DNA from: Desulfobacterales bacterium
Lineage (GTDB): Bacteria; Desulfobacterota; Desulfobacteria; Desulfobacterales; JAFDMD01
DNA length: 35,672 nucleotides
Direction of reading: 5' to 3'
NCBI GenBank assembly: GCA_029939135.1
Contig: JAOZTP010000003.1
Location: forward strand, 1 to 35,672
The notes below the pieces were generated by a model. The model was given only the letters and a program-made list of their open reading frames with translations, did no database searches and was not told the DNA's origin. The translations under genes and the position numbers were made by a program. Below, in pieces: positions 2 through 29,490 of this stretch (position 1 is the stretch's first letter; each line of letters begins with the position of its first letter).

Positions 2-2905
2 TCCCCTGAAGACGGAGCAAAAATGGGGCTTCAAGGAATGATAAATCATATGATGAGTCTCCTTGATTTTTCGACCCTAAAAGAAAACATAGAAAAAAGG
101 ATAAACGAACTTAACCCGGACAACAAACTTCTTACGGCAAACTTTATTACCGCAATAGAGCAGTTTAAAAAAACCGACAAAGCAAAAAGCGATTCTTTGG
201 CTGCGGCGCTTAAAGAAAAAGCCTCCGATAAAAAAATTCCGGTAATAGGAATTACAGGCACGGGCGGCGCCGGCAAATCCTCTTTAACGGACGAATTAAT
301 TCTTCGTTTTTTACGCGACGTTAAAGACATAAAAATAGCGATAATATGCAGCGATCCTTCCAAACGTAAAACCGGCGGCGCGCTTTTGGGCGATAGAATA
401 CGAATGAACGCCATAGACGACAACAGGGTTTATATGCGCTCCCTTGCGACAAGAGAATCTTTAACCGAAGTTTCCGAAATGCTTTACGAGGCTATACAGG
501 CGGCAAAAGCCTCAGGGTATGATCTTATTATTACCGAAACCGCAGGCATAGGACAAGGCGATTCCAGAATTACCGATATATCCGATATATCCTTATACGT
601 TATGACAAGCGAATTTGGCGCCGCATCTCAGCTTGAAAAAATAGACATGCTTGATTACGCCGACCTTATAGCAATAAACAAATTTGAAAAAAAAGGAGGC
701 GAAGACGCTCTTAGAGACGTCCGAAAACAGTTTTTAAGAAACCAAGACGCATGGGATCAAAAGCCGAAGGACATGCCGGTTTACGGAACCATAGCTTCAA
801 AATTCAACGACGACGGAGTTACCGCTTTATATTCTGCGCTGATAGAGGCAATAAACAAAAAAACAGGCGTAGCCTTTAAATCGAATATAACTCCGCCTAA
901 CATAAAATATTCAACATCAAAAACCATAATAATACCGCCAGAAAAAATTCGTTATCTTGCAGAAATAAGCGATACCGTTCGCAAATACCATGATCAAACC
1001 GAAACAAATAGAAAAAATATAGAAAAAGCATGGCATCTTAAAAAGGCTGCGGAAATAATCGAAAAAGAGAATAAATCTTCCGAATTATCGGAAACGCTTA
1101 AAAATCAAATTAAAACAGCCGAAGAAAAGATAGACAAAGAAACGGAAAACCTTCTTAAAGATTGGGACAAAATCCGACAGAATTATAAAAAAGAGGAGTT
1201 CGTCTATACTGTTCGAGATAAAATAATAAAAATACCTCTTTATAAAACCTCCTTATCTCAAAAGAAAATACCTAAAATATCGCTGCCTAATTTTAAATCC
1301 AAGCCCGAAATATATCAATGGCTGCGAAAAGAAAACCTTCCGGGACGCTTTCCTTTTACCGCCGGAGTTTTTCCATTAAAAAGAGCGGACGAAGACCCCA
1401 CAAGAATGTTCGCGGGCGAAGGAGATCCCGCAAGAACAAACAGACGATTCAAGCTTTTATCCGGAAACTACAAAGCAAAACGCCTTTCCACCGCATTTGA
1501 TTCGGTTACTTTATATGGACGCGATCCGGAAATAAGACCGGACATATACGGCAAAGTAGGAACCTCCGGGGTAAGCATATGCACATTGGAAGACGTAAAA
1601 GTTCTCTATGACGGGTTCGATCTTGCCTCGCCAAACACCTCCGTATCAATGACAATAAACGGACCCGCTCCCATAATGCTCGCTATGTTTTTAAATGCCG
1701 CAATAGATCGGCAGATAGACAAATTTAAAGCGGAACAGAAAAAAGAGCCTTCAGCCGAAAAAATCGAAAAAATAAAAGCTGATACCCTATCCAAAGTAAG
1801 AGGCACGGTTCAGGCAGACATATTAAAAGAGGATCAAGGGCAGAATACCTGCCTGTTTTCTACGGACTTTGCTTTAAAAATGATGGGAGACATACAGGAA
1901 TACTTTATACAAAAAAATGTCCGTAACTTTTATTCCGTATCAATATCAGGCTACCACATAGCCGAAGCCGGGGCAAACCCGATTACCCAGCTTGCCTTTA
2001 CCCTTGCAAACGGATTTACCTACGTTGAATACTACCTTTCAAGAGGAATGGACATAAATGCGTTCGCCCCCAATCTTTCATTTTTCTTTTCAAACGGAAT
2101 GGATGCCGAATATACGGTTATAGGCAGAGTAGCCCGAAGAATATGGGCGATTGCGCTTAAAGAAAAATATGGTGCTTCCGTCCGTTCTCAAATGTTAAAG
2201 TATCATATACAAACCTCCGGTAGATCATTACATAGTCAGGAAATACAATTTAACGACATACGAACGACATTACAGGCGCTTTGCGCAATATACGACAACT
2301 GCAACAGCTTGCATACAAACGCATTTGACGAGGCAATTACAACGCCGAGTCAAGAATCAGTCCGCCGCGCCCTTGCAATACAATTAATAATAAACAGGGA
2401 ATGGGGGCTTGCAATAAATGAAAACGTCCTACAAGGAAGCTTTATAGTAGAAGAGCTTACAAGTCTTGTAGAAGAGGCGGTTCTATCAGAATTTGACAGA
2501 ATAACGGAACGAGGCGGGGTTTTGGGCGCTATGGAAACCGGTTATCAGCGAAATAAAATACAAGACGAATCATTATATTACGAACATCTGAAACATACGG
2601 GAGAGCATCCGATAGTAGGAGTCAATACATTCCGAGAAGCCGATGCGGACGAAGATCAGTTAAGCGAAAACATAGAGCTTGCAAGAGCCACAGAAGAGGA
2701 AAAAAATTCTCAGCTTACAAGGCTTGCGGAATTTCACAATAAAAATCAAGAGCATGCGCCGGAGGCTTTAAAAGGGCTTCAGCAGGCGGCTTTGGCAAAC
2801 CAAAACGTTTTTGAAGAGCTTATGAACACAGTTAAATACTGCTCGCTTGGGCAGATTACAAAAGCGCTTCATAACGTAGGCGGAAAATACAGAAGAAACA
2901 TATGA
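2..2905 (+). CDS. icmF: Fused isobutyryl-CoA mutase/MeaB-like GTPase IcmF (5' part, including the B12-binding domain, lies left of the window)
   Basis: The frame is open from base 2 ([14 protein letters not shown]), so the gene starts upstream. It has a P-loop [12 protein letters not shown] and [16 protein letters not shown] (MeaB GTPase) followed by acyl-CoA mutase motifs [47 protein letters not shown] and [10 protein letters not shown]. Confidence 0.95.
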
Positions 2906-18351: not shown

Positions 18352-18380
18352 TTGACAATAAATTAAGAATACTTGATAAT
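18352..18380 (+). promoter_or_regulatory. Putative sigma70 promoter of the giant fibre gene
   Basis: TTGACA (18352-18357), 17-nt spacer, GATAAT (18375-18380); about 115 nt upstream of the ATG at 18494. Confidence 0.55.
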
Positions 18381-18493
18381 TATGCAAAAGGATATTTTTT
18401 TGCTTCTCTTTGTTTGAGTTGACGCCTTTGATCTTGAATCGGAATCGTTTTATGAATTCGCATTAAAATTTTTTTTAAGGATTGGAGGATACT

Positions 18494-21400
18494 ATGAAGA
18501 AGTTCTTCATATGTTTCATAAGCATGCTGTTTATATTTTTATTATTTAACATATATGCCCAAGCTGCAAAAAATAACAATGAGAATAAAACGCCTTCATC
18601 CACAACGGATAAGCCGAAGCCCGAGCTGCCCTATTTGCCTAAAATCAAACCTTTAAAATCAAAGATTTTTAAAAAAACCTCTCTTGAAATAGCGGCGTTG
18701 AAAAAAGCGGCTATCTCCTATTATGAAGAAACAGGCGCATGGCCACTTGACGCTGAAAGACTTAAAGCTTTTGGTCTTAAAAAATGGAACGGCAAAAGCT
18801 CTTGGGGAACGCCGATAAGCTTTTATGTGAAAAACGGAGAGTTTATAATATCTAATAAAGTGCCAGATAATTTACATGCGGCTTTTGAGGGTTTCGGAAG
18901 AATTGAAAAAGATAAAAAAACAGGAAAAGTTAATATACATATTGCCCCGCCGAATTCGATTCAAATTAGAGACAACGCCAAATTATTCGAACAGGATATA
19001 ATTATAAGCAAATCCGAGCCTATATTACGCTTGGAAGACACAAATATATCCGATCTAAACTTAACGGACTCAAATATATCCGATTCTAACCTATCAGACG
19101 CTAATAATTCCTTATCTGTTTTTATTATGAATAAAAATGGGGAGTTGGTTTTTTTAGACAATAAAAAGCTCCCTAATATTCGGGTAAAACAGAAAGGAGA
19201 TGTAGAAATAAAAGGAAACTTAAGCGCGGTTTCCAATAGCATCCGATTAAAAAATATCGAAAACGAGGGTTCCTCTCTTATAGAGATGGCGGACGCCGCT
19301 AATAAATATAAAGCCGTATTAAGAGTCGGGGACAAATACAAAAATGATAAAGAAGAGGTAATACCGGAAGGTTTTCAGATGGGCACCATCTCGAAGCATC
19401 CGGTAACTATGCTTGTAAACAATTCCCCGCGCGTTATTATAGATGAAGAGAATTTAAGCTCTCCGAATATTAACGCCATTAATATTCACTCTGGCAATAT
19501 TGCCGCAGATAATATCAAAATAAATAAAACAATAAACGGCGAAGATATTACCAAGCTTCTTGACGGGCTTATAGTTTTAATCAACTCTAAAGAGTTGTCC
19601 GACATTGTTAATAGAAACGTAAAACTTATGACCGAAACAAATATAGAGGACTATGCAATATCCATAGCCGGAACAAAAGCGCTTGTAGGCGATATAATTC
19701 CGGCGATATCAAGCAAATATATTATAGGCTCTTCAGCCCGCTCCTTTAAAGCGGGATATTTTGACAGTCTATACATTTCAGGCTCCTCGCTTTATATGGA
19801 CGGAGTAAAAGTGCTAAGCTCGGAAGGAGCGATTTTAAACGGCGACATTTCCGGCACAGGCGTTAAAGCCGTTATTGACGAAAATAATCCGAGCGATGTT
19901 AAACTTGCTTCCGAAAAAGCGATTACAGATTATGTCCAAGAGAAAGTCGCAAACATATCAGGCATTCCGGGCAAACTTCAACTCGGAGGAGATTTTATAA
20001 CTACCGGAGATATGACGCTTAATGTTATGGGCGGCGGAACAACCGAAATTACCCTTCCGGTAACCGGAACTTTGGCTACTCGCGAGTGGACGCTGGCGCA
20101 AAATTTATCAGCTAATATTGCCTTGTCCGATTTAACAAACGTAGCCGATAATCTGCCAGATACGGCGGGCAATATGTTAATATGGGATAACAGCGGAATA
20201 TTGCAAAGCAAAGCTTTAACAAGAGACGTATCCGTAAATCAATATGGCGTCGCTACGGTTAATAGCATAGACGGCGAACCTATAACTTTAGGCGGAGCTT
20301 TTGAAACTGTTAATCCGATAAAATTAGAGGCTTCAAAGGATGTAACCGTTAAAATAGAAGACAGCGGAACTCTTGCCACGCAGGCTTATGTAGTTAGTCA
20401 AATAGTAGGTTCCAATATGTCGGCGGCTACTACGTTGGCAAGTCTTACGGATACGGACATAACCGCTTCCGACTCTTCCGGCGATATAATAATATGGGAT
20501 GCCGGCAGCAATACATGGATTAACAAAAAAATTTCGCAGGATGTTAGCTTGGAAAAGACAGGCGCTGCAACGGTTACAAGCATAGGCGGAAAATCTATAA
20601 GTTTGGAAGCGCCATTTAAAACTACCGGCGATAAAATTATAGAGTTAAAGGCTTCCGCTCAAAACGTCATGCTTACAATAGAGGATACCGGCATTGTTGC
20701 AACCAAAGGATATGTAACGGAACAGATGAAAGATGTTATGCCTAACGAGATAAGCTCTCCTGTTACCGGCAATCTCGTAATTTGGGACGGAGACAAAAAT
20801 AAGTGGGTTAATAATTCGCTTTATCAGGACGTTAGTTTGGAAAAGGACGGCAAGGCAACGGTTACGCACATAGGCGGCAAGACTATAAGTTTGGGAGCGG
20901 GATTTAAAACTAACGGAGCCGGCGGCAATATAGAATTAAACGCATCCGCTCCGGTATCCGTTGAAATACACAGAAGCGGAGTATTGGCTACCATTGACGA
21001 CATTAACGATTATATTATAGCCGCAGGCGAGGCTGCGAGATTAGAAGATCTTACGGATGTCGCCATAACTACTTCCGGCGTTTCCGGCGATATAATAATA
21101 TGGGATGCCATAAGCAATAAATGGGTTAACAAAAAAGTTTATCAGGATGTTGAGTTGGCAAAAGACGGCAAAGCGACGGTTACGCACATAGGCGGCAAGT
21201 CTATAAGTTTGGGAGCGGGATTTAAAACTAATTGGGGCGGCAATATAGAATTGAACGCATCCGCTCCGGTATCCGTTGTAATAACAGACAGCGGGACACT
21301 TGCCACTAAAGAATATGTCGATAAAGAAATATTTGCCGCAAGCGGATCCGCCAAATTAAAAGATTTATCGGATACGGTTATTTCTGATACAATAAGCGCC

Positions 21401-24400
21401 GGCGATTTATTAATATGGGACGGTTCGTCCGAATGGGTTAGCCGATCAATATCCGGCGATATTAATTTGGATGCGGGCGGAGCCGCAATCATAAGCAAAA
21501 TAGGCGACAAGCCTATAAGTTTGGAGGCGGAATTTAAAACTACCGGCGGAGGCAATATAGAGTTGAAAACTCCTAATACTTCTCCGGTATCAGTCGAAAT
21601 AAGAGACAGCGGAATTCTTTCTACAAGAACCTATGTTGACAAGCAGATACTTGCGGCAAACAGAGCCGCAACATTGGCAAACCTATTAGATGCCAATATT
21701 AGCTCCCCTATTGGAGGCAACATATTAATATGGGACAGCGTCAGACAGCAATGGGCAAACCGAAAAATGATGGGAGATGCCTCTTTAGAAGCAAACGGAG
21801 CAATAGAGGTGGCTAAAATAAAAGGGAAAAGTATTACTTTGGGAGGGACTTTTGAAACTTCGGACGCTATAAAATTAAACGCCCCGAATTCAGTAATAAT
21901 AGACATACCCAAAAGCGGCACATTAGCCACAATCGCAGACGTCGATAGATACATAGAAGCGGCAAACAGTTCGGCTACTTTGGGTAATCTTATAGATACA
22001 AATATTTCCGACGCTATAGCTTCCGGCGATATGCTTTTATGGAATGACATGGAAGAGCAATGGTATAATAAGTCGATAACCGGAGACGCTTCTATAGATA
22101 AAGACGGAAATACCACGGTTACCAGCTTAAAGTCTGGGACAATAGAATTCAACTCTGCAAATCCGGTTAATATCGAAATAGTCAAAAGCGGAGAGATGGC
22201 TACGCTTGCAGACATAGATATAAGTTTAGAGGCGGCAAACAGATCTGCCACTTTGGAGAATCTTATAGATACAAACATTTCCGGCTCTATAGCTTCCGGC
22301 GATATGCTTTTATGGAATAATATAGAAAAACAATGGTATAATAGGCAGATAATCGGAGACGCTTCTATAGATAAAGACGGAAATATTACCGTTAACAGCC
22401 TTAGAGCGGGAATGGTAGAATTTAACGCGTCTTCGCCGATCAGCATTGAGATAACCAAGAGCGGAAGGCTTGCAAGAATGGAAGATTTGGACGCCTACAT
22501 AATAGCGGCAAACGCTACCGCTACATTATCGAATCTTGTAGATACCGATATAAATTTGGCTGCTGCGGGCAATATTGTAATATGGGACGATAGCGCCGAA
22601 AAATGGATTAATAAAGGGCTTTCGCAAGATGTAACCATAGATAAAGGCGGTGTAGCCACAGTTCATAGTATAAACAACAAGCCTGTAAGTTTGGGAGCCG
22701 GTTTTAGTACCGACGGAGAAGGAACAATAGAATTCAAAGCATCCTCGCCCGTATCAATTGAAATAAAAAATAGCGGGGTATTGGCTACGCAGGATTATAT
22801 AGCAGGACAAATAGAGGCTGCAAATAAGGCGGCGGAACTTAGACATCTTGTCGATACCAATATTTCCAATACGCCGGTTAACGCTGATATATTAGTATGG
22901 GACAACAACCAGTGGTTTAACCGCTCAATAAGCGGCGATATTGTTTTAAATAAAACCGGCGAAGTTACTATAAGTAAGGTGGGCGGCGAGTCTATAAGTT
23001 TGGGGGGCGGTTTTCAGACCACAGGCGACGGAACAATCATTCTCGGCGGACCCGTTGAAAGCAGCGAATCCGTGAATGTAATAATAGAGGATAGCGGAGT
23101 ATTAGCTACAAAAGATTATGTCAGCGAAATGATGATCGCCGCAAACAATTCGGCTACTTTGGAAAACCTTACGGATACCGAAATTTCGGATACAATAGCT
23201 TCTCGAGATATATTAATGTGGGACGGAGCTAAATGGGTTAGCCGTAGCGTATCCGGCGATATTCAGTTGGCGGCGGACGGCGGTTCCGAAGTGAAACGTA
23301 TAGGCGGAATGAATGTTGATTTAAGCGGACATTTTGCAACTACAGGCGCGGGAACCATCACATTAAACAATCCGGCGACCAAAGATATATCCGTCAACAT
23401 AAACAAAACCGGCACGGTGGCAATGGTAGATGATCTTAATAACTACATAGGAAATGCGATCGGCGAGGCGCAGTTAAACAAGCTTACGGATACCAACATT
23501 TCGGACGCAATACCTTTGGAGTCCGGAAATATATTGGTATGGGAGGATAACGATCAAAAATGGTTTAATCGCAAAGTTTCCGGCGACGTTAGTTTGGCGG
23601 CAAGCGGCGAGATTATCATAAACAAAGTAGCGGGTAAATCTATAAGCTTGGGAGCCGACTTTAAAACTCCCGGCGCGGGACAAATTGAGTTGAACGCATC
23701 TTCGCCGGTATCAATCAAAATAGCGGAGAGCGGAATAATGGCGACGCAAAATTATGTAAACGCCAGAATAAACGATTCCGGCACGCTTAAAACCCTTATA
23801 GATACCGAAATTTCGGATACAATAGTTTCTCGAGATATATTAATGTGGGACGGAACTAAATGGGTTGACCGTAGCATATCCGGCGATATTCAGCTCACCC
23901 AAGAAGGCAAAGCTACAGTAAGAACGTTAGACGGCGTTTTTATTAATCTGGGCGCCGCTTTCGAGACAAGAGGACCCGGCGCCATCAATATAACCGCTCC
24001 CTTGAATGTGGCGGTTACAATGGATGAAAGCGGAATATTAGCCACTAAAAATTATATTGCCGAACAAATAGATGAGGTTAATAATTCCGGCACATTGAGC
24101 AACCTTAACGATATACAGCTTGCATCGGAAGGGGTTATGATAAACGGAAGTTTATTAATTTGGGATAACGTTCAGAAAAAATGGTTTGATAGAGAGATCG
24201 GACTCGATGCAAGCCTTACAGAAGACGGCAGGCTAACCGTTAAAAGCATAGGCGGAAAATCTATTAGTTTGGGCGGCGAACTTAATACATCAGGCGGAAA
24301 ATTTATTACAAACGGCGGAGATATTACTTTTAACGCCGAAGGCCCCACAATTTTAACATTGCCTACAACCGGCACATTAGCTACTAAGGAGTATGTGGAC

Positions 24401-26269
24401 GATAAAGATCACGCTCTGGCATCTTTGTCGAACGTAATAATAGATAGCGTAAACGATGGCTCAATATTAGTATGGGATGTGGACGGAGGAGCCGACGGAA
24501 CCGGAGTTTGGAAAAGCAAGTCTTTAAGCGGAGACGGCTCTGTTGACGCCGAGGGAAAACTTACCATAACCCACATAGGCGGACAGCCTATAAATTTAGG
24601 AGGCGAATTTAGAACTGCCGGCAAATTTATTACATACGGCGGCGATATAAGATTACGCGCAACAAGCGGCTACGCGGATCTGATTTTGCCTCAAAGCGGA
24701 ACTTTGGCTACGTTAGATAATATAACCGATATGATAAGAGCCTCTAATTTAACCGATTTAAATGACGTTGATCTTGACTACGACACGTTAGAGGGCGGAC
24801 AAATTTTAGTTTGGGACGCCGCCGTTGCTAAATGGAGAAATAAAGGCTTAACAGGAGATATAAGTTTAAACAACTCCGACGGAAATGCAACCGTTAAAAG
24901 CATAGGCGGGCATCCGGTTACATTAGGAGGCAATTTTACCACTGACGGCAACCTAACCTTTAACGTTGCCGGTGGCGAAGCAACTCTTACCCTTCCCGTA
25001 GAGGGAGTTTTGGCTACGCTTAAAGGAAACGAAACTTTTTTTAATAAAATAATAAAAGATAGCAACGCCAGTTTCAATAAGCTTTCATTAGATTTTGAGG
25101 ATAACAAATACGGAGATAAGAGTTTTGACGAAAATGAAACCGAAAGATGGGTTATGACCTTAAAAGATCAAAACGGAACAGCAGAATGGAGAAGAGCTAC
25201 CGATATAGGCGCCGTTTGGGTGGCGGGAAAAGATTCGCAGTATGAGGAGTTGGCATATTATGACGATAATAAAACGGATAATAGAAGTTTAGGCATAGGA
25301 TTCAGTTTTAATCTGATAAACGAAGACGAATCCCCCTACCCTGTAAGAGATAATCAGAGTTTTGATATTTCCGAAACAGGAGATGAAGATACTATTTTAG
25401 ATTATCAGCTTTATGTGGGCAGAAAAGAGCCTCTTGGAGGCAGCATATATGCTTACGGACATATAATGGCTAAAGATTATTATGAATTCAGCGACGAACG
25501 CTTAAAAGAAAACATCGCAAGCATATCTTCTTACGCGCCTATAATGGATAAAATAAGAAATATAGAAGGGGTTTATTACGATTGGAATTCCTTATATTAT
25601 GATAAGAATAAAATAAATAAAAAGCAAAGACGCCAAATAGGATTTATAGCGCAGCAATTGGAAAAAGAATTTCCGGAACTTGTTCAAACCGAAACAGACG
25701 GTTTTAAATCGGTTACATATTCAAAATTCGTTCCGGTGCTTTTAGAAGGCATAAAAGAATTAGATAGGCAGATTAATCATAGAGAAAATTCCATTTTTAT
25801 AGATCCGGACGGAAATATAAACCTTAAAGGAATCGTAAAAATAGACAATATCGCTATTATAGATAAAAAAGGAAATATTGCCGCAAACAACCTTAAAGTA
25901 AAAGAGGATATCCAAACATCCAATACCTTCTCGATACTTCGGTCCGATACGCTATCGGCTTTAATTGCAGTTTCAACCGAAAAAAGAGCGAATAAAAAGG
26001 TAGAGGGTTATATCTCGGCAAAAGACATATACATTGCGGATAAAGACAGATGGGCTTCCGAATTCGATTCTAGGATAAAAATCGTTTCCGAAACTCCGGA
26101 GGATACAAGCTGCTCCGCCGAAAACGTCGGGGAGATGCGTTTCGTTTCAAAAGATTCAACCCTGTGCATATGCGACGAAAAAGGGAGTTGGTTAAAATTT
26201 AATACATCCGAAAAGGAAAAAAAGCTTGCCGCTTCGACTCCGATAGATATTGACGCTTTTTTCGATTAA
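18494..26269 (+). CDS. Giant secreted tail-fibre-like repetitive protein with peptidase S74 intramolecular chaperone domain (putative adhesin)
   Basis: RBS ggagg at 18484-18488, then ATG 18494 with a Sec signal (MKKFFICF..IYAQA). About 16 tandem ~90-110 aa repeats at ~19975-25050. S74 motif SDERLKENI..YDW..IGFIAQQLEKEFPELV..Y..LLEGIKEL from 25490. Confidence 0.85.
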   Translation: MKKFFICFISMLFIFLLFNIYAQAAKNNNENKTPSSTTDKPKPELPYLPKIKPLKSKIFKKTSLEIAALKKAAISYYEETGAWPLDAERLKAFGLKKWNGKSSWGTPISFYVKNGEFIISNKVPDNLHAAFEGFGRIEKDKKTGKVNIHIAPPNSIQIRDNAKLFEQDIIISKSEPILRLEDTNISDLNLTDSNISDSNLSDANNSLSVFIMNKNGELVFLDNKKLPNIRVKQKGDVEIKGNLSAVSNSIRLKNIENEGSSLIEMADAANKYKAVLRVGDKYKNDKEEVIPEGFQMGTISKHPVTMLVNNSPRVIIDEENLSSPNINAINIHSGNIAADNIKINKTINGEDITKLLDGLIVLINSKELSDIVNRNVKLMTETNIEDYAISIAGTKALVGDIIPAISSKYIIGSSARSFKAGYFDSLYISGSSLYMDGVKVLSSEGAILNGDISGTGVKAVIDENNPSDVKLASEKAITDYVQEKVANISGIPGKLQLGGDFITTGDMTLNVMGGGTTEITLPVTGTLATREWTLAQNLSANIALSDLTNVADNLPDTAGNMLIWDNSGILQSKALTRDVSVNQYGVATVNSIDGEPITLGGAFETVNPIKLEASKDVTVKIEDSGTLATQAYVVSQIVGSNMSAATTLASLTDTDITASDSSGDIIIWDAGSNTWINKKISQDVSLEKTGAATVTSIGGKSISLEAPFKTTGDKIIELKASAQNVMLTIEDTGIVATKGYVTEQMKDVMPNEISSPVTGNLVIWDGDKNKWVNNSLYQDVSLEKDGKATVTHIGGKTISLGAGFKTNGAGGNIELNASAPVSVEIHRSGVLATIDDINDYIIAAGEAARLEDLTDVAITTSGVSGDIIIWDAISNKWVNKKVYQDVELAKDGKATVTHIGGKSISLGAGFKTNWGGNIELNASAPVSVVITDSGTLATKEYVDKEIFAASGSAKLKDLSDTVISDTISAGDLLIWDGSSEWVSRSISGDINLDAGGAAIISKIGDKPISLEAEFKTTGGGNIELKTPNTSPVSVEIRDSGILSTRTYVDKQILAANRAATLANLLDANISSPIGGNILIWDSVRQQWANRKMMGDASLEANGAIEVAKIKGKSITLGGTFETSDAIKLNAPNSVIIDIPKSGTLATIADVDRYIEAANSSATLGNLIDTNISDAIASGDMLLWNDMEEQWYNKSITGDASIDKDGNTTVTSLKSGTIEFNSANPVNIEIVKSGEMATLADIDISLEAANRSATLENLIDTNISGSIASGDMLLWNNIEKQWYNRQIIGDASIDKDGNITVNSLRAGMVEFNASSPISIEITKSGRLARMEDLDAYIIAANATATLSNLVDTDINLAAAGNIVIWDDSAEKWINKGLSQDVTIDKGGVATVHSINNKPVSLGAGFSTDGEGTIEFKASSPVSIEIKNSGVLATQDYIAGQIEAANKAAELRHLVDTNISNTPVNADILVWDNNQWFNRSISGDIVLNKTGEVTISKVGGESISLGGGFQTTGDGTIILGGPVESSESVNVIIEDSGVLATKDYVSEMMIAANNSATLENLTDTEISDTIASRDILMWDGAKWVSRSVSGDIQLAADGGSEVKRIGGMNVDLSGHFATTGAGTITLNNPATKDISVNINKTGTVAMVDDLNNYIGNAIGEAQLNKLTDTNISDAIPLESGNILVWEDNDQKWFNRKVSGDVSLAASGEIIINKVAGKSISLGADFKTPGAGQIELNASSPVSIKIAESGIMATQNYVNARINDSGTLKTLIDTEISDTIVSRDILMWDGTKWVDRSISGDIQLTQEGKATVRTLDGVFINLGAAFETRGPGAINITAPLNVAVTMDESGILATKNYIAEQIDEVNNSGTLSNLNDIQLASEGVMINGSLLIWDNVQKKWFDREIGLDASLTEDGRLTVKSIGGKSISLGGELNTSGGKFITNGGDITFNAEGPTILTLPTTGTLATKEYVDDKDHALASLSNVIIDSVNDGSILVWDVDGGADGTGVWKSKSLSGDGSVDAEGKLTITHIGGQPINLGGEFRTAGKFITYGGDIRLRATSGYADLILPQSGTLATLDNITDMIRASNLTDLNDVDLDYDTLEGGQILVWDAAVAKWRNKGLTGDISLNNSDGNATVKSIGGHPVTLGGNFTTDGNLTFNVAGGEATLTLPVEGVLATLKGNETFFNKIIKDSNASFNKLSLDFEDNKYGDKSFDENETERWVMTLKDQNGTAEWRRATDIGAVWVAGKDSQYEELAYYDDNKTDNRSLGIGFSFNLINEDESPYPVRDNQSFDISETGDEDTILDYQLYVGRKEPLGGSIYAYGHIMAKDYYEFSDERLKENIASISSYAPIMDKIRNIEGVYYDWNSLYYDKNKINKKQRRQIGFIAQQLEKEFPELVQTETDGFKSVTYSKFVPVLLEGIKELDRQINHRENSIFIDPDGNINLKGIVKIDNIAIIDKKGNIAANNLKVKEDIQTSNTFSILRSDTLSALIAVSTEKRANKKVEGYISAKDIYIADKDRWASEFDSRIKIVSETPEDTSCSAENVGEMRFVSKDSTLCICDEKGSWLKFNTSEKEKKLAASTPIDIDAFFD
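19975..25050 (+). repeat. About 16 full plus one partial intragenic tandem repeats of ~100 aa
   Basis: Recurrent consensus ISLG..F.T.G...IEL....V...I..SG.LAT..YV......A.L..L.DT.I......G.ILIWD....W.N....GD..L...G...V..IGGK, counted by hand in the translation. Confidence 0.9.
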
Positions 26270-26301
26270 GGAACAGAGCCGCAATAAATTTAATATACCT
26301 T

Positions 26302-26331
26302 TTTAATCCCCTTTTTTAAGAGGGGATTAAA
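26302..26331. terminator. Hairpin between the fibre gene and aroQ
   Basis: 11-bp stem tttaatcccct-tttttaag-aggggattaaa, 33 nt after the stop. No clear U-tract on the plus strand. Confidence 0.45.
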
Positions 26332-26343
26332 GGGAAATAACAT

Positions 26344-26799: not shown

Positions 26800-27316
26800 A
26801 CTCATCAACCTCTTTTCTTTTAGGCGGTTTAGGAGATTGAGCTGGATACCCCGCGCAAATCAAAGTCGCCAATTCGTAGCTTTTTGGAACAGATAAAATA
26901 TCTTTTGCCTTATCATGATCAAAAGAGCCTATAATTAAGGTTCCAAGCCCCATATCATGAGCCGCAAGAGCAAGACTTTGAGTCGCAATTCCCAAGTCAT
27001 GCATAAACCAGTCTCCGAATATAGTGGTTGCTTTGCCTTTATAATATCCAGCGACTTCCAACTTTCCGCATAGCGCAAAAAGAATCGGAGCGCTTACGAC
27101 AGCTTCGGTTGCCGGATTTTTAGGACTTATAATCGCTTTCAGCGCCTCCCTTATTTTATTATCCGAAACCGATATTATCTCCCAGCATTGAGTATTTGCC
27201 CAAGAGGGCGACCATCTTACCGCTTTCAAAAGTTTTTGGACATTCTCTTTGGATACCTCTTTGTTTTCATATTTTCGGATACTTCTTCTTGTTTCTATTA
27301 GTTGGGTTGAATTCAC
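26777..27316 (-). CDS. Nitroreductase family protein
   Basis: TRRSIRKY, SPSWANTQCW and LAAHDMGLGT motifs. GTG start with AGGAGG upstream; 3' end overlaps aroQ by 23 nt. Confidence 0.93.
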   Translation of the reverse strand: MNSTQLIETRRSIRKYENKEVSKENVQKLLKAVRWSPSWANTQCWEIISVSDNKIREALKAIISPKNPATEAVVSAPILFALCGKLEVAGYYKGKATTIFGDWFMHDLGIATQSLALAAHDMGLGTLIIGSFDHDKAKDILSVPKSYELATLICAGYPAQSPKPPKRKEVDEFIHYNRF

Positions 27317-27327
27317 TTTTCCTCCTT

Positions 27328-27473
27328 TAAATTTTGGCGCATAACTTCGTATTTTGCCCGTTTGCGGCGTTAAAAAACTTTTTTAATCCTCGAAATACTC
27401 CATGTATTCCTGCGGTTAAAAAAGTTTTTCGCCTTGCAAACGAACAAACCACTTTGTTATGCGCCAAAATTTA
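27328..27473 (+). repeat. Full-length family A palindromic element with perfect 18-bp terminal inverted repeats (MITE/REP-like)
   Basis: taaattttggcgcataac (27328-27345) and gttatgcgccaaaattta (27456-27473). Inner arms aaaaacttttttaa / ttaaaaaagttttt surround a central gaaatac..gtattcc hairpin. Confidence 0.85.
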
Positions 27474-27496
27474 TTCATTCTTTTTATGATTAAAAA

Positions 27497-27575
27497 AACA
27501 AACTCCTTTGTTATGCGCCAAAATTTTATTCGTCTCAAAACCGAACAAATTATTTTGTTACCCGCCAAAATTTTA
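27497..27575 (+). repeat. Two extra tandem right-end fragments of family A
   Basis: aacaaactcctttgttatgcgccaaaatttt (~27497-27527) and gaacaaattattttgttacccgccaaaattttt (~27543-27575). Confidence 0.7.
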
Positions 27576-27622
27576 TTATTTTTTTATAATTAGATATTTT
27601 TAAATTACCTCTAAAAAAATAT

Positions 27623-28102: not shown

Positions 28103-29490
28103 ATGACAATTTTTTTTAGTATAATTGCAATTTTTACGGCTTGCATAATAGCCGCTTTTAATCATTCCTATAAACTGCTTAAAGAGGAGGCTGGAGCAAA
28201 AAGATATATAGAGATATTAAGAGAAACCCGCCCGAAGTTTGCAAAAGAATATAAAAAATATTTAAAAGCAGGGTTGGATAAACTTGATTCTATTTTCGGA
28301 AAGCCTTTTAGCGATCAGGCTTTAACTATTAATACATCCTTTGCGGTTTTCTATGCAATATCCTTTTTTGCGTTATCTTGGCTTATAGGCGGAAGCGGTA
28401 AAATAGGCTCTATAATCATACTGTCGGAAAACCTTTCCATTCCTTTAAGGTTTTTCTCCGTTTTTATTTTTATACTTGTCTTTATTTTAATCTTTTATCT
28501 AATTTTTAATTACAAAAAATTTGACATAGCAGCCGAAAATATTCTTTCAAAAATAGTCCCGAAAAATTTTCAAGATGGATTTATCGCCTATTTTTTGCTC
28601 TGTCATTTCTTGCTTCAGCCTTTGTTTTAGATAATTATTTTATTTTATTTTTTTCAGCTTTGTTAAGCCCTGCATTCGTATCCGTATTCATATTCGCAGC
28701 CATATTCGCAGGAGCAGGAATGGGAATATTTTCATTATTATATGTCGCAGCCTTATTATTATATAAAAAAAGATTTTTATTATATTATATATCATCCGTT
28801 ATTATTATTTTATTCTTTACGGTTTTGGGTTTGGAGATAAAAAATATTAAAGTTGATAATGAATCGGTCTCATCTTTATTCTTTTTTATTATCCTTCCTT
28901 GCACAAACGGAGCTATGGACTTTATATCCTTTTTGATAAGCAGAATTTTGGGCAGAAAGATAGAAAAGGATGAAAAAATTTGCTCTTTTCTATGGCATTT
29001 TGCAATTGATTTTATTGCGGCTGTAACTTTGCTCGTGCTGTTGATTTTCGGAATAACCTTTTTAACCGAAATTTTTAATATTTTAATTATAAAAAATCCG
29101 AAATTGATGATAAATCTGCCTGAAATCATAGAGAATGCAAAGGCGGAGCCTTGGGGCGCAAAAGGTTTATGGATAACCTTAATGTTAATAAGCACCCTTA
29201 TCCCCACCTTTTCTCATTTTATAATAGCATTTGTCGGAGCTTATACCCTCTATTTTACGCCGGCAAAAATAAGAGAAGCTATTGCTTTAAAAATAGAGCA
29301 AAAAAAGAGCCCGCAGGATTTAACTTTGTCCGCCCTTTATTTTGCGCTTAAATATCCGTTATGCGTAGCTGTTGGAATTGGCTTTTGGACGCTTTTAATA
29401 TTTTTTTTAAATAAATTTATGCATGTTGCGGCAAAATTATCAGACGTAGCCTATGCGGGAATAGATTTTGCCGAATATATTATTCGTTAA
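28103..29490 (+). pseudogene. Polytopic membrane protein of unknown function, split by a single-base frameshift near 28567-28570
   Basis: The frame of ORF 28660-29490 is open back through 28570 (SRWIYRLFFALSFLASAFVLDNYFILFFSALLSPAF). One extra T in the aaaaatttt run would fuse it with ORF 28103-28630 into about 460 aa. Confidence 0.6.

What the first reader, a model, noticed from the sequence alone, without database searches (positions are those of the whole stretch)
18494..26269. Stand-alone ~2590-aa secreted phage-tail-fibre-like protein with S74 chaperone among housekeeping genes
Seen: Sec signal peptide, its own sigma70-like promoter and RBS, about 16 tandem ~100-aa repeats, a fibre-like LATLKGNETFFNK motif, and an S74 motif beginning SDERLKENI. 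Neighbours are alkD-like/argJ and aroQ; no integrase, capsid, baseplate or autotransporter beta-barrel is visible in the window. Established: S74 domains are self-cleaving chaperones that trimerise phage tail spikes and fibres, and also the mosaic adhesive trimer fibres of Bdellovibrio. Inference: a domesticated, very long trimeric surface fibre in a probable sulfate reducer, possibly used to attach to a syntrophic partner, host or mineral, with an unknown route across the outer membrane. This is the best candidate for an undescribed system here.
Basis: partly seen in the sequence, partly recalled or inferred. Interest (0 to 1): 0.85.

Follow-up and report, generated by a model that had tools for sequence, protein, structure and literature searches.

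The report
Giant self-cleaving trimeric fibre gene
A sulfate-reducer-type bacterium from hydrothermal vents carries, among housekeeping genes, one very long exported protein built like a phage tail fibre, which probably forms a three-stranded fibre for sticking to something outside the cell.

Summary
Window 18494..26269 (+) is one intact 2591-aa ORF. It has a Sec-type signal peptide (judged by eye), a 514-aa N-terminal region found only in this genus, and 16 diverged ~100-aa repeats. A 143-aa tip follows, then a Pfam-confirmed Peptidase_S74 chaperone domain with the S-D-x-x-x-K dyad. The last ~150 aa are an unusual genus-specific extension.

All neighbours are housekeeping genes. The same ArgJ-AlkD | gene | AroQ-nitroreductase order recurs in both other genomes of the genus. 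There dS matches the neighbours and dN/dS is 0.12-0.42, so this is an old, vertically kept, selected gene and not a prophage remnant.

A homotrimer test of three repeats passed: ipSAE 0.79, best control 0.00, pLDDT 90-91.

The repeat is not in Pfam. It has 1634 profile relatives among 1.84 billion representatives, many of them mosaic phage-tail-fibre-like proteins. In 151 genomes of the same order it was found only in this genus.

Best reading: a Sec-exported, self-processing homotrimeric fibre, probably a surface adhesin, analogous to Bdellovibrio MAT fibres. Its anchor, its route across the outer membrane and its ligand are unknown. It is a new variant of a known kind, of moderate interest.

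The parts
18352..18380 (+). Sigma-70-like promoter candidate TTGACA-17-GATAAT, 114 nt upstream of the ATG
   Evidence: 11 of 12 positions match. The region holds 4 such sites against 2.9 expected in shuffles, so this is weak on its own.
18484..18489 (+). Shine-Dalgarno-like GGAGGA, 4 nt before the ATG
   Evidence: read from the sequence.
18494..26269 (+). Whole coding sequence: 2591 codons plus stop
   Evidence: Purifying selection in all parts.
18494..18565 (+). Sec-type signal peptide, aa 1-24 (MKK, hydrophobic run, AQA|A)
   Evidence: Judged by eye; conserved in orthologues P0004 and P0153. There is no lipobox and no prepilin motif.
18566..20107 (+). N-terminal region, aa 25-538, known only from this genus. 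It is the candidate cell-proximal or anchoring part. Its last ~45 aa (about nt 19970-20107) look like the second half of a repeat.
   Evidence: only 2 proteins match, both orthologues; 82-87% identical; dN/dS 0.16-0.24; no Pfam or PDB sequence match. AF2 monomer failed (pLDDT 29); weak Atlas look-alike to Shufflon_N/PilV (0.86), a lead only.
20108..25060 (+). 16 tandem repeats of 90-113 aa (aa 539-2189), the fibre shaft. R7 and R8 (21965-22507) are short and are the only pair still alike at the DNA level.
   Evidence: period 273 nt, 74% matches for R7/R8 only; the homotrimer test of R14-R16 passed.
25061..25489 (+). Distal tip region, aa 2190-2332. It becomes the C-terminal end of the mature fibre after self-cleavage and is the candidate ligand-binding end.
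   Evidence: conserved only in orthologues; 83% identity, dN/dS 0.21; no Pfam match.
25490..25810 (+). Peptidase_S74 intramolecular chaperone / self-cleaving domain, aa 2333-2439. Ser2333 and Lys2338 sit in SDERLK.
   Evidence: PF13884, E 1.1e-14; 61.5 bits; profile matches solved chaperone domains 6f45, 8jov, 7dc3 and 3gud; dN/dS 0.12.
25811..26266 (+). Genus-specific C-terminal extension behind the S74 domain, aa 2440-2591. It holds the only three Cys of the exported protein and would be released together with the chaperone.
   Evidence: 258 aa follow the catalytic Ser here, against 94-134 aa in 10 other S74 proteins. Cys at 2540, 2558 and 2560; no Pfam match; dN/dS 0.32.

Best explanation
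The gene encodes a Sec-exported protein of 2591 aa. After signal-peptide removal, three chains are brought into register by the C-terminal S74 chaperone domain and zip into one long, intertwined homotrimeric fibre. The mature chain spans aa 25-2332 (246 kDa, acidic, cysteine-free).

The chaperone then cuts itself off before Ser2333. It leaves together with a ~150-aa extra domain, and this exposes a conserved 143-aa tip.

The conserved N-terminal ~500 aa would hold the fibre at the cell, and the tip would bind a ligand that does not change between species. That makes the protein a long-reach surface adhesin.

Shown: the domain order, the S74 membership, the conserved chromosomal position and the purifying selection.
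Shown in silico only: trimerisation of the repeats.
Inferred: export, self-cleavage, surface display, adhesion, and the route across the outer membrane. Two secretin systems exist in the genome, but nothing links them to this gene.
For: - Architecture is established.
- The S74 domain scores over Pfam's cut-off and carries the S-D-x-x-x-K motif. The motif is defined in PMC10769870 (passages). A profile of the C-terminal part matches solved chaperone domains: 6f45 at 2e-13, 8jov at 3.4e-13, MyRF 7dc3 at 1.3e-7 and phi29 gp12 3gud at 1.7e-6.
- A homotrimer of R14-R16 gave ipSAE 0.79 in each of 3 runs, against a best control of 0.00. pLDDT was 90-91, there were about 1400 contacts, and the runs agreed in at least 95% of contacts. 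The mark was reached by 20 of 30 calibration homomers and 1 of 23 single chains. The calibration used two copies and its own alignments, so these counts hold only roughly.
- All neighbours are housekeeping genes.
- Orthologues sit in the same ArgJ-AlkD | x | AroQ-nitroreductase position in 2 of 2 other genomes of the genus.
- dS is 0.35-0.49 against G002, compared with 0.26-0.41 for AlkD and AroQ. dN/dS is 0.12-0.42 in every part.
- The genome holds one S74 gene. No Phage_sheath_1 or Phage_capsid match was found.
- The signal peptide is conserved in the orthologues. Phage fibres assemble in the cytoplasm (established knowledge), so a signal peptide fits a cellular role.
- Bdellovibrio MAT fibres give a precedent for signal peptide + trimeric fibre + S74 displayed on a bacterial surface (PMC10769870, passages).
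Against: - There is no evidence of expression: no RNA holder was listed.
- The signal peptide was judged by eye. Its hydrophobic run is long, so it could be an uncleaved membrane anchor.
- No anchor or secretion partner was identified, and no outer-membrane barrel or known anchor domain was found.
- AF2 monomer models of the N-terminal and C-terminal parts failed (pLDDT 29 and 38). The fold of the tip, the N-terminal region and the extension is therefore unknown, and no fold comparison was possible.
- The trimer pass is a model's own confidence. It may partly reflect likeness to solved phage fibres.
- The conserved tip is unlike the fast-changing tips of phage fibres and MATs, so 'adhesin' is an analogy and not a result.
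- Direct sequence links of the repeats to phage families are weak. Only 2 of 16 repeats hit phrog_9627, best E 2.6e-4. A tblastn of three repeats against 50,697 phage records found nothing.
Confidence: 0.6

Rival explanations
1. It is an exported trimeric fibre that is not held at the cell. It would be released into the surroundings as a matrix or biofilm scaffold, or to bridge cells, rather than act as a cell-anchored adhesin.
For: No anchor domain, lipobox, sortase-type or barrel motif was found. The mature protein is acidic and cysteine-free, as is common for extracellular proteins. The trimer is supported in silico.
Against: The N-terminal 514 aa are the best conserved long part: 82-87% identity, dN/dS 0.16-0.24. 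That fits a specific docking partner. MAT fibres with the same overall plan are surface-held (PMC10769870, passages).
Confidence: 0.15
2. The hydrophobic N-terminus is an uncleaved signal anchor. The fibre would then stay in the cell envelope, tethered to the inner membrane in the periplasm, as a structural element rather than an external adhesin.
For: The hydrophobic run is long, about 15-17 residues. No route across the outer membrane is evident. The N-terminal part gave a weak pilin-like look-alike (Atlas 0.86, a lead only). AF2's only half-confident stretch there is a helix followed by strands.
Against: An A-x-A site follows the hydrophobic run in all three orthologues. By my own rough recall of phage fibre dimensions, not computed here, a 2300-aa trimeric shaft would be on the order of a hundred nanometres. 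That is far longer than a periplasm is wide. Two secretin systems are available.
Confidence: 0.1
3. It is a phage-derived tail-fibre gene that still serves a virus-like particle (prophage, tailocin or contractile injection system encoded elsewhere), or it is a decaying remnant.
For: The S74 domain and PHROG hits are of tail-fibre type. Of 58 repeat relatives scanned, 24 match phrog_9627 and 13 match phrog_9729 'tail fiber protein'. S74 domains occur in injection-system fibres (search listing only). The genome is a 204-contig assembly, so a particle cluster could be missed.
Against: It has a signal peptide. The 7.8-kb frame is intact with dN/dS 0.12-0.42, and dS is like that of the neighbours. 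It occupies the same housekeeping position in 3 of 3 genomes of the genus. No sheath or HK97 capsid family was found in a genome rated 97.6% complete. No phage family was found in the 20 window ORFs scanned.
Confidence: 0.05
4. It is a monomeric repeat adhesin or S-layer-like protein that merely carries an S74-like end.
For: Long tandem-repeat adhesins are common. The monomer models were uninformative.
Against: The trimer test passed, with contacts all along three repeats. S74 domains are trimerisation chaperones (PMC10769870, passages). No adhesin or S-layer family matched.
Confidence: 0.03

Closest known systems
Bdellovibrio bacteriovorus MAT (mosaic adhesive trimer) fibres, S74 subgroup, e.g. 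Bd3182 (PMC10769870)
   Same: Both are bacterial chromosomal genes, not prophage genes. Both have a signal peptide, a fibre that is trimeric along its length (predicted here), and a C-terminal S74 domain with SDxxxK that cleaves to expose the tip.
   Different: - MATs form a family of 21 paralogues with variable tips and one shared ~130-aa beta-rich N-terminal domain. Here there is one copy per genome.
- The tip is conserved between species.
- The N-terminal region is 514 aa with no relatives outside the genus.
- There are sixteen ~100-aa repeats.
- An extra ~150 aa follow the chaperone.
- The host carries dsrA and is not a known predator.
- No MAT sequence could be fetched, so homology of the N-terminal parts was not tested. 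Solved MAT tips did not appear in my PDB sequence searches.
Phage S74-capped fibres and spikes (K1F endosialidase, T5 L-shaped fibre, as named in PMC10769870; solved relatives 6f45 and 8jov)
   Same: It has the same chaperone/protease domain and motif. It has a fibre shaft of repeats whose relatives sit in mosaic tail-fibre-like proteins.
   Different: It carries a signal peptide, lies in a housekeeping context and is inherited vertically. It is 2-5 times longer than the S74 proteins I retrieved (378-1289 aa). The chaperone is not the end of the protein.
Trimeric autotransporter adhesins (YadA type)
   Same: The proposed job is the same: a long, Sec-exported homotrimeric surface fibre.
   Different: There is no C-terminal barrel anchor or any YadA family match. 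The trimerisation device is a cleaved chaperone, and the polarity would be the opposite, with the free end at the C-terminus.
Uncharacterised 'tail fiber domain-containing proteins' of other phyla (e.g. P0020, 2104 aa; P0027, 1750 aa; P0154, named so by NCBI)
   Same: They have a signal-like N-terminus, matches to the same repeat profile, and a C-terminal S74 domain.
   Different: Their N-terminal parts are different, they have fewer full repeats, and they lack the extension behind S74. None has a studied function as far as my searches show.

Membership tests
Peptidase_S74 / intramolecular chaperone domain | Match to PF13884 above the curated cut-off | tested here: met
   54.8 bits against 22, aa 2333-2397; 61.5 bits on the DNA.
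Peptidase_S74 / intramolecular chaperone domain | Catalytic Ser and Lys in S-D-x-x-x-K (motif as given in PMC10769870) | tested here: met
   SDERLK at aa 2333-2338. It aligns with the same motif in 6f45 and 8jov. Of the two orthologues, L009 keeps SDERLK and L010 reads SDKRLK, which still fits S-D-x-x-x-K.
Peptidase_S74 / intramolecular chaperone domain | Self-cleavage before the Ser, dependent on trimer formation | not testable with these tools
   This needs expression of wild type against a Ser2333Ala variant.
Peptidase_S74 / intramolecular chaperone domain | Usual architecture: the domain ends the protein, about 95-135 aa after the Ser | tested here: not met
   258 aa follow the Ser here and in the orthologues, against 94-134 aa in the 10 other hits where the motif was found. 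This is a usual feature, not a defining one.
Bdellovibrio MAT fibres | Signal peptide | tested here: met
   Judged by eye only, with no predictor.
Bdellovibrio MAT fibres | Shared ~130-aa beta-rich domain directly after the signal peptide | tested here: inconclusive
   No MAT sequence was available to compare. The N-terminal region found only 2 orthologues. The AF2 model failed, and its secondary structure starts with helices.
Bdellovibrio MAT fibres | Trimeric along the fibre | tested here: met
   ipSAE 0.79 against a best control of 0.00, for 3 of the 16 repeats only and in silico.
Bdellovibrio MAT fibres | Multi-paralogue family with swapped tips | tested here: not met
   There is one S74 gene in the genome, and all 16 repeat matches lie in that one gene. 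The tip is 83% identical between species.
Trimeric autotransporter adhesin | C-terminal YadA-type membrane anchor | tested here: not met
   no such family even at E up to 1.
Virion or prophage tail fibre | Encoded within a tail or structural gene module | tested here: not met
   20 neighbouring ORFs, none of phage type; no sheath or HK97 capsid family in the genome; housekeeping synteny in 3 of 3 genomes.
Virion or prophage tail fibre | Sequence membership of a phage protein family over the shaft | tested here: inconclusive
   PHROG hits cover only the S74 part, plus phrog_9627 at 3.1e-4; 2 of 16 repeats match; no tblastn match in 50,697 phage records; the relatives of the repeat often carry tail-fibre modules.
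Type IV pilin / PilV (Shufflon_N)-like N-terminal module | Prepilin leader and family match (N_methyl, Shufflon_N, T2SSG) | tested here: not met
   No such Pfam hit at E up to 1 or 10. No G|F-T-L-x-E motif in the sequence. There is only an Atlas feature score of 0.86, below the tool's own 0.9 line.

The most novel reading that the evidence does not exclude
The genus-specific N-terminal region is a leaderless pilin-like docking module. It would plug a phage-derived, S74-matured fibre onto the cell's type IV pilus or secretin machinery. The bacterium would then display a ~100-nm trimeric fibre by a route not described for any adhesin, and use its invariant tip to hold a fixed partner, for example a syntrophic archaeon in vent sediments. 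The extra domain released with the chaperone would have a job of its own.
Probability: 0.08. Interest if true: 0.8.

Novelty: new variant of a known kind. Interest (0 to 1): 0.5.

Why it matters
Phage-type, S74-matured fibres used by bacteria for their own purposes are so far documented experimentally only in the predator Bdellovibrio. This is a giant, single-copy, vertically inherited one, with a conserved tip, in a small-genome sulfate-reducer-type bacterium from hydrothermal settings.

If it works as proposed, such fibres would be a general bacterial surface tool and not a predator's speciality. It would also offer a clean case for three open questions that apply to MAT fibres too:
- How such fibres cross and attach to the outer membrane.
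- What a non-variable tip binds.
- What a domain placed behind the chaperone does.

The ~100-aa repeat is absent from Pfam but has more than 1600 profile relatives. It deserves a family of its own.

Tried and rejected
- AF2 monomer model of the N-terminal 513 aa (3-row alignment): pLDDT 29.3, unusable.
- AF2 monomer model of the C-terminal 402 aa (7 rows): pLDDT 37.6, unusable. I therefore ran no fold search, since low-confidence models give meaningless matches.
- PDB sequence searches with the repeat profile gave a best E of 0.14. The N-terminal region gave no hit.
- Pfam at E up to 10 on two N-terminal pieces, the tip and the extension returned only chance-level hits. NCBIfam gave nothing credible.
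- A near-length search of 5.8 billion proteins found one weak hit, P0003.
- tblastn of repeats R3-R5 against the phage collection found no match.
- No RNA holder was listed among the sequencing runs, so nothing can be said on expression.
- Joints in metagenome contigs hint at forms with fewer or more repeats. Their flanks are only 20-48 letters at 85% likeness, so I do not count them as findings.
- Lipoprotein was rejected. Cys7 is not in a lipobox and is Tyr in the orthologues.
- Assembly artefact was rejected. The repeats are too diverged to collapse. Contigs of a second sample tile the gene with 0 differing letters in the 6 listed pieces: 18569-19671, 19724-20788, 20884-21230, 21202-22043, 23239-24392 and 24449-26248. 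The stretch 22044-23238 had no listed identical piece in that run.
- Supplementary tables of PMC10769870 (the list of MAT proteins) were not seen. They could bear on the comparison of N-terminal domains.
Full report
OBSERVATION. The window holds one uninterrupted frame from 18482 to 26269 on the + strand. The ATG at 18494 is preceded by GGAGGA at 18484-18489 and gives 2591 aa. Both orthologues begin at the same MKK.

The first 24 residues read as a Sec signal peptide: MKK, a hydrophobic run, then A-Q-A before Ala25. This is by eye, as no predictor was at hand. The pattern is kept in both orthologues. Cys7 is not in a lipobox and is Tyr in the orthologues.

A W-anchored motif recurs 16 times at spacings of 90-113 aa. 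The 16 units (aa 539-2189) align with a mean pairwise identity of 39%. At the DNA level only R7 and R8 are still recognisably tandem, with period 273 nt and 74% matches. The array is therefore old and cannot be an assembly collapse.

Pfam places Peptidase_S74 at aa 2333-2397 (E 1.1e-14, 54.8 bits against a cut-off of 22). SDERLK begins at aa 2333, which is nt 25490. The promoter-like TTGACA-17-GATAAT at 18352-18380 is a good match (11 of 12). However, the spacer is AT-rich and the scan found 4 sites against 2.9 expected.

SURROUNDINGS. Twenty ORFs of the window were scanned against Pfam.
- Upstream lie a fused MeaB/methylmalonyl-CoA mutase, ETF beta and alpha, a radical-SAM methylthiotransferase-type protein, a TRAP transporter (DctPQM), an M20 peptidase, RelA/SpoT, a DUF2442 protein, ArgJ and a DNA_alkylation (AlkD-like) protein.
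- Downstream lie type II dehydroquinase (AroQ), a nitroreductase, two ORFs without a family, and a molybdopterin oxidoreductase with its Fe-S and NrfD partners.
- None is of phage, integrase, transposase or autotransporter type.
- A tRNA-Leu lies 1.6 kb downstream, but AroQ and the nitroreductase sit in between and are syntenic in the relatives.

The genome (G000) is 2.05 Mb in 204 contigs and rated 97.6% complete. It has exactly one S74 match. It has no Phage_sheath_1 match and no HK97-type Phage_capsid match. It has dsrA above its curated cut-off. It also has two secretins: one next to PilN/PilO/PilP, and one (STN + Secretin) near a T2SSF-family gene.

CONSERVATION. Among 40 relatives searched with the whole protein, both other genomes of the genus hold the gene at 75-83% identity, and there it is broken over contig ends inside the repeats. 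Four of the 38 other genomes of the order matched only over the S74 domain, in 444-514-aa frames.

In both congeners the N-terminal piece abuts AlkD and ArgJ, and the C-terminal piece abuts AroQ and the nitroreductase. The repeat profile found matches in 3 of 151 genomes of the order, namely the three of this genus. All 16 matches in G000 lie in this gene.

Nei-Gojobori estimates are as follows.

| Part | dN/dS vs G002 | dN/dS vs G001 |
|---|---|---|
| N-terminal region | 0.16 | 0.24 |
| Repeats | 0.28-0.39 | 0.42 |
| Tip | 0.21 | - |
| S74 domain | 0.12 | - |
| Extension | 0.32 | - |
| Whole C-terminal part | - | 0.14 |
| AlkD (neighbour) | 0.19 | 0.21 |
| AroQ (neighbour) | 0.10 | 0.20 |

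dS of the parts against G002 is 0.35-0.49, in the range of the neighbours (0.26-0.41). The gene has therefore been in place since these species split and is kept by selection.

THE PARTS.

(i) N-terminal region, aa 25-538. Only the two orthologues were found among proteins under 1425 aa, and nothing was added by the near-length search. There was no Pfam, NCBIfam or PDB sequence match. The Atlas gave Shufflon_N/PilV clusters at 0.85-0.86, below its own 0.9 line, so this is a lead only. There is no prepilin motif. AF2 failed.

(ii) Repeats. They are not covered by Pfam. Against 1.84 billion representatives, the repeat profile found 1634 proteins at E<=1e-3, 241 at <=1e-10 and 13 at <=1e-30. Three of the best four hits are fragments of the orthologues. 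Many hits match only profile positions ~3-40, the L-x-D-L-x-D...G-D-x-L-x-W-D...W part, so the unit is composite.

- Of the 147 listed non-self hits, a crude pattern called 35 signal-like and 7 carried SDxRxK.
- I scanned 58 of the 147: those of 1500 aa or fewer, in rank order, up to the size limit. In Pfam most had nothing (DUF2793 in 5, DUF5907 in 2).
- In PHROGs, 24 matched phrog_9627, 23 matched phrog_13853, 13 matched phrog_9729 (tail fiber protein), 10 matched phrog_11660 (tail protein) and 10 matched phrog_677 (baseplate wedge tail fiber connector).
- Of 10 relatives chosen for a full-length repeat match, 5 had PHROG hits at <=1e-6. These hits lie mostly beside the repeat rather than on it.
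- Directly, only 2 of the 16 repeats hit phrog_9627, best E 2.6e-4. Three repeats found nothing by tblastn in 50,697 phage records.

The repeat thus belongs to the mosaic world of tail-fibre-like proteins by company and by profile, not by close similarity.

(iii) Trimer test. Three copies of R14-R16 (325 aa, 7-row alignment A6) gave ipSAE 0.79 in all three runs against 0.00 for the best of three controls. pLDDT was 90-91, with about 1400 contacts spread along the whole length, and the runs agreed in at least 95% of contacts. The mark was reached by 20 of 30 calibration homomers and 1 of 23 single chains. The tool warns that its calibration used two copies and its own alignments, and that a pass may reflect likeness to solved complexes. 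This supports, but does not show, a trimeric shaft. It speaks against the clause 'repeats model as a known monomeric adhesin'.

(iv) Tip, aa 2190-2332. It is found only in the orthologues and has no family. It is 83% identical between species with dN/dS 0.21, so it is conserved, unlike receptor-binding tips under arms-race pressure.

(v) S74 domain. A profile of the C-terminal alignment hits the solved chaperone domains 6f45 (2e-13), 8jov (3.4e-13), MyRF 7dc3 (1.3e-7) and phi29 appendage 3gud (1.7e-6), with the SDxRxK motif aligned.

(vi) Extension. Here 258 aa follow the catalytic Ser, against 94-134 aa in the 10 other S74 hits in which the motif was found. The surplus (aa ~2440-2591) is conserved only in the genus, holds the only three Cys of the exported chain and matches no family. 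AF2 on the C-terminal 402 aa failed.

HOW IT MOST LIKELY WORKS.
- Sec export is inferred from the signal peptide.
- Registration and zipping of three chains by the S74 domain follows from established knowledge of the family (PMC10769870, passages) plus the in-silico trimer.
- Self-cleavage before Ser2333 is inferred from the intact motif. It would release a 259-aa, 29.5-kDa piece (chaperone plus extension) and leave a 2308-aa, 245.8-kDa, pI 4.6, cysteine-free chain per strand.
- The conserved N-terminal region would dock the fibre at the cell and the conserved tip would bind a constant ligand. Both are inferred by analogy with MAT fibres.
- How it passes the outer membrane is open. The genome has a PilQ-type secretin and a second secretin, but nothing links them to this gene.
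- By my rough recall of phage fibre dimensions, not computed here, a shaft of this length would be on the order of 100 nm.

WHERE IT OCCURS. The DNA is held by runs labelled hydrothermal vent metagenome: X1-X4, one study, with X1 possibly being the source. A sediment metagenome run of another study holds a 0.31 share of the words. No RNA run was listed. Contigs of X3, a second sample, match the gene in six listed pieces without a differing letter. A relative's record is titled 'MAG: Deltaproteobacteria bacterium'.

COMPARISON AND NOVELTY. The closest described system is the S74 subgroup of Bdellovibrio MAT fibres. It shares the plan of signal peptide, trimeric fibre, and an S74 domain that cleaves to expose the tip.

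It differs in six ways:
- one copy instead of a 21-member family;
- a conserved tip;
- a long orphan N-terminal region instead of the shared ~130-aa domain (not testable here for lack of MAT sequences);
- a 16-repeat shaft;
- an extra domain behind the chaperone;
- a host with dissimilatory sulfite reductase.

Long S74 proteins with signal-like N-termini in other phyla (P0020, P0027, P0155, P0157, P0160, P0161, P0165) show the general kind is widespread, though unstudied. My literature searches found no paper on such fibres in sulfate reducers or syntrophic consortia:
- 'tail fiber' with sulfate-reducing/syntrophic/adhesin/ANME returned 10 papers, 9 of them listed, and none of the 9 holds 'tail fiber';
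- Peptidase_S74/PF13884 returned 32 papers, of which 25 listings were seen. These were phage, injection-system and virus work;
-.

I file it as a new variant of a known kind.

VERDICT. Interest is 0.5. It is a solid and unusual example that sharpens open questions about bacterial use of phage-type fibres, but it is not a new kind of system on present evidence.

Noticed in passing
window 27328-27590 (intergenic, between the nitroreductase gene and tRNA-Leu): A cluster of four copies, direct and inverted, of a short element with a 19-nt core. The core matches 44 places across the genome at up to 2 mismatches, against 0 for the reversed control. Metagenome contig depth jumps about tenfold at 27086-27400. 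It looks like a dispersed REP/MITE-like intergenic repeat family.
   Followed up: partly
window 21890-24342 (repeats R6-R14): Metagenome contigs show joints that would remove or duplicate whole repeats. Examples are a skip of 571 nt with 25 other letters between (a net 546 nt, in frame, about R7+R8), a skip of 1572 nt with 30 letters between, and a go-back of 614 nt. The flanks are only 20-48 letters at 85% likeness, so these are weak hints of repeat-number variants among strains.
   Followed up: no
window 21965-22507 (R7, R8): The two shortest repeats (91 and 90 aa) both lack the ~15-20-aa 'IGGKxISLGxxFxT' segment. They are the only pair still similar at the DNA level (74%), which points to a recent duplication of a shortened unit.
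   Followed up: no
window 26111-26190 (aa 2540-2566) and the C-termini of P0008, P0018 and P0028: The Cys-bearing end of the extension (G-E-M-R-F...C-I-C...G-S-W) resembles, by eye, the extreme C-termini of several unrelated repeat-bearing proteins. DUF2793 occurs in 5 of 58 relatives scanned. This may be a recurrent small end module. It was not tested.
   Followed up: no
window 26270-26343: Only 74 nt and no terminator-like hairpin separate the fibre gene from aroQ. aroQ may be read through from the fibre gene or have its own start.
   Followed up: no
G001 contigs C47 and C25; G002 contigs C168 and C128: In both congeners the orthologue is split over contig ends inside the repeat array, so their repeat numbers are unknown. 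In G001 repeats R14-R16 are only 58-59% identical to the window's, while the N-terminal and C-terminal parts are 81-83% identical.
   Followed up: partly
window 28103-28630 and 28660-29490: Two adjacent + strand ORFs (175 and 276 aa), just after tRNA-Leu in the lowest-GC stretch of the window (0.29), have no Pfam family.
   Followed up: no
window 23-2905: A single 960-aa ORF fuses a MeaB-type GTPase to a methylmalonyl-CoA mutase domain, which is an IcmF-like architecture. It is unrelated to the finding.
   Followed up: no
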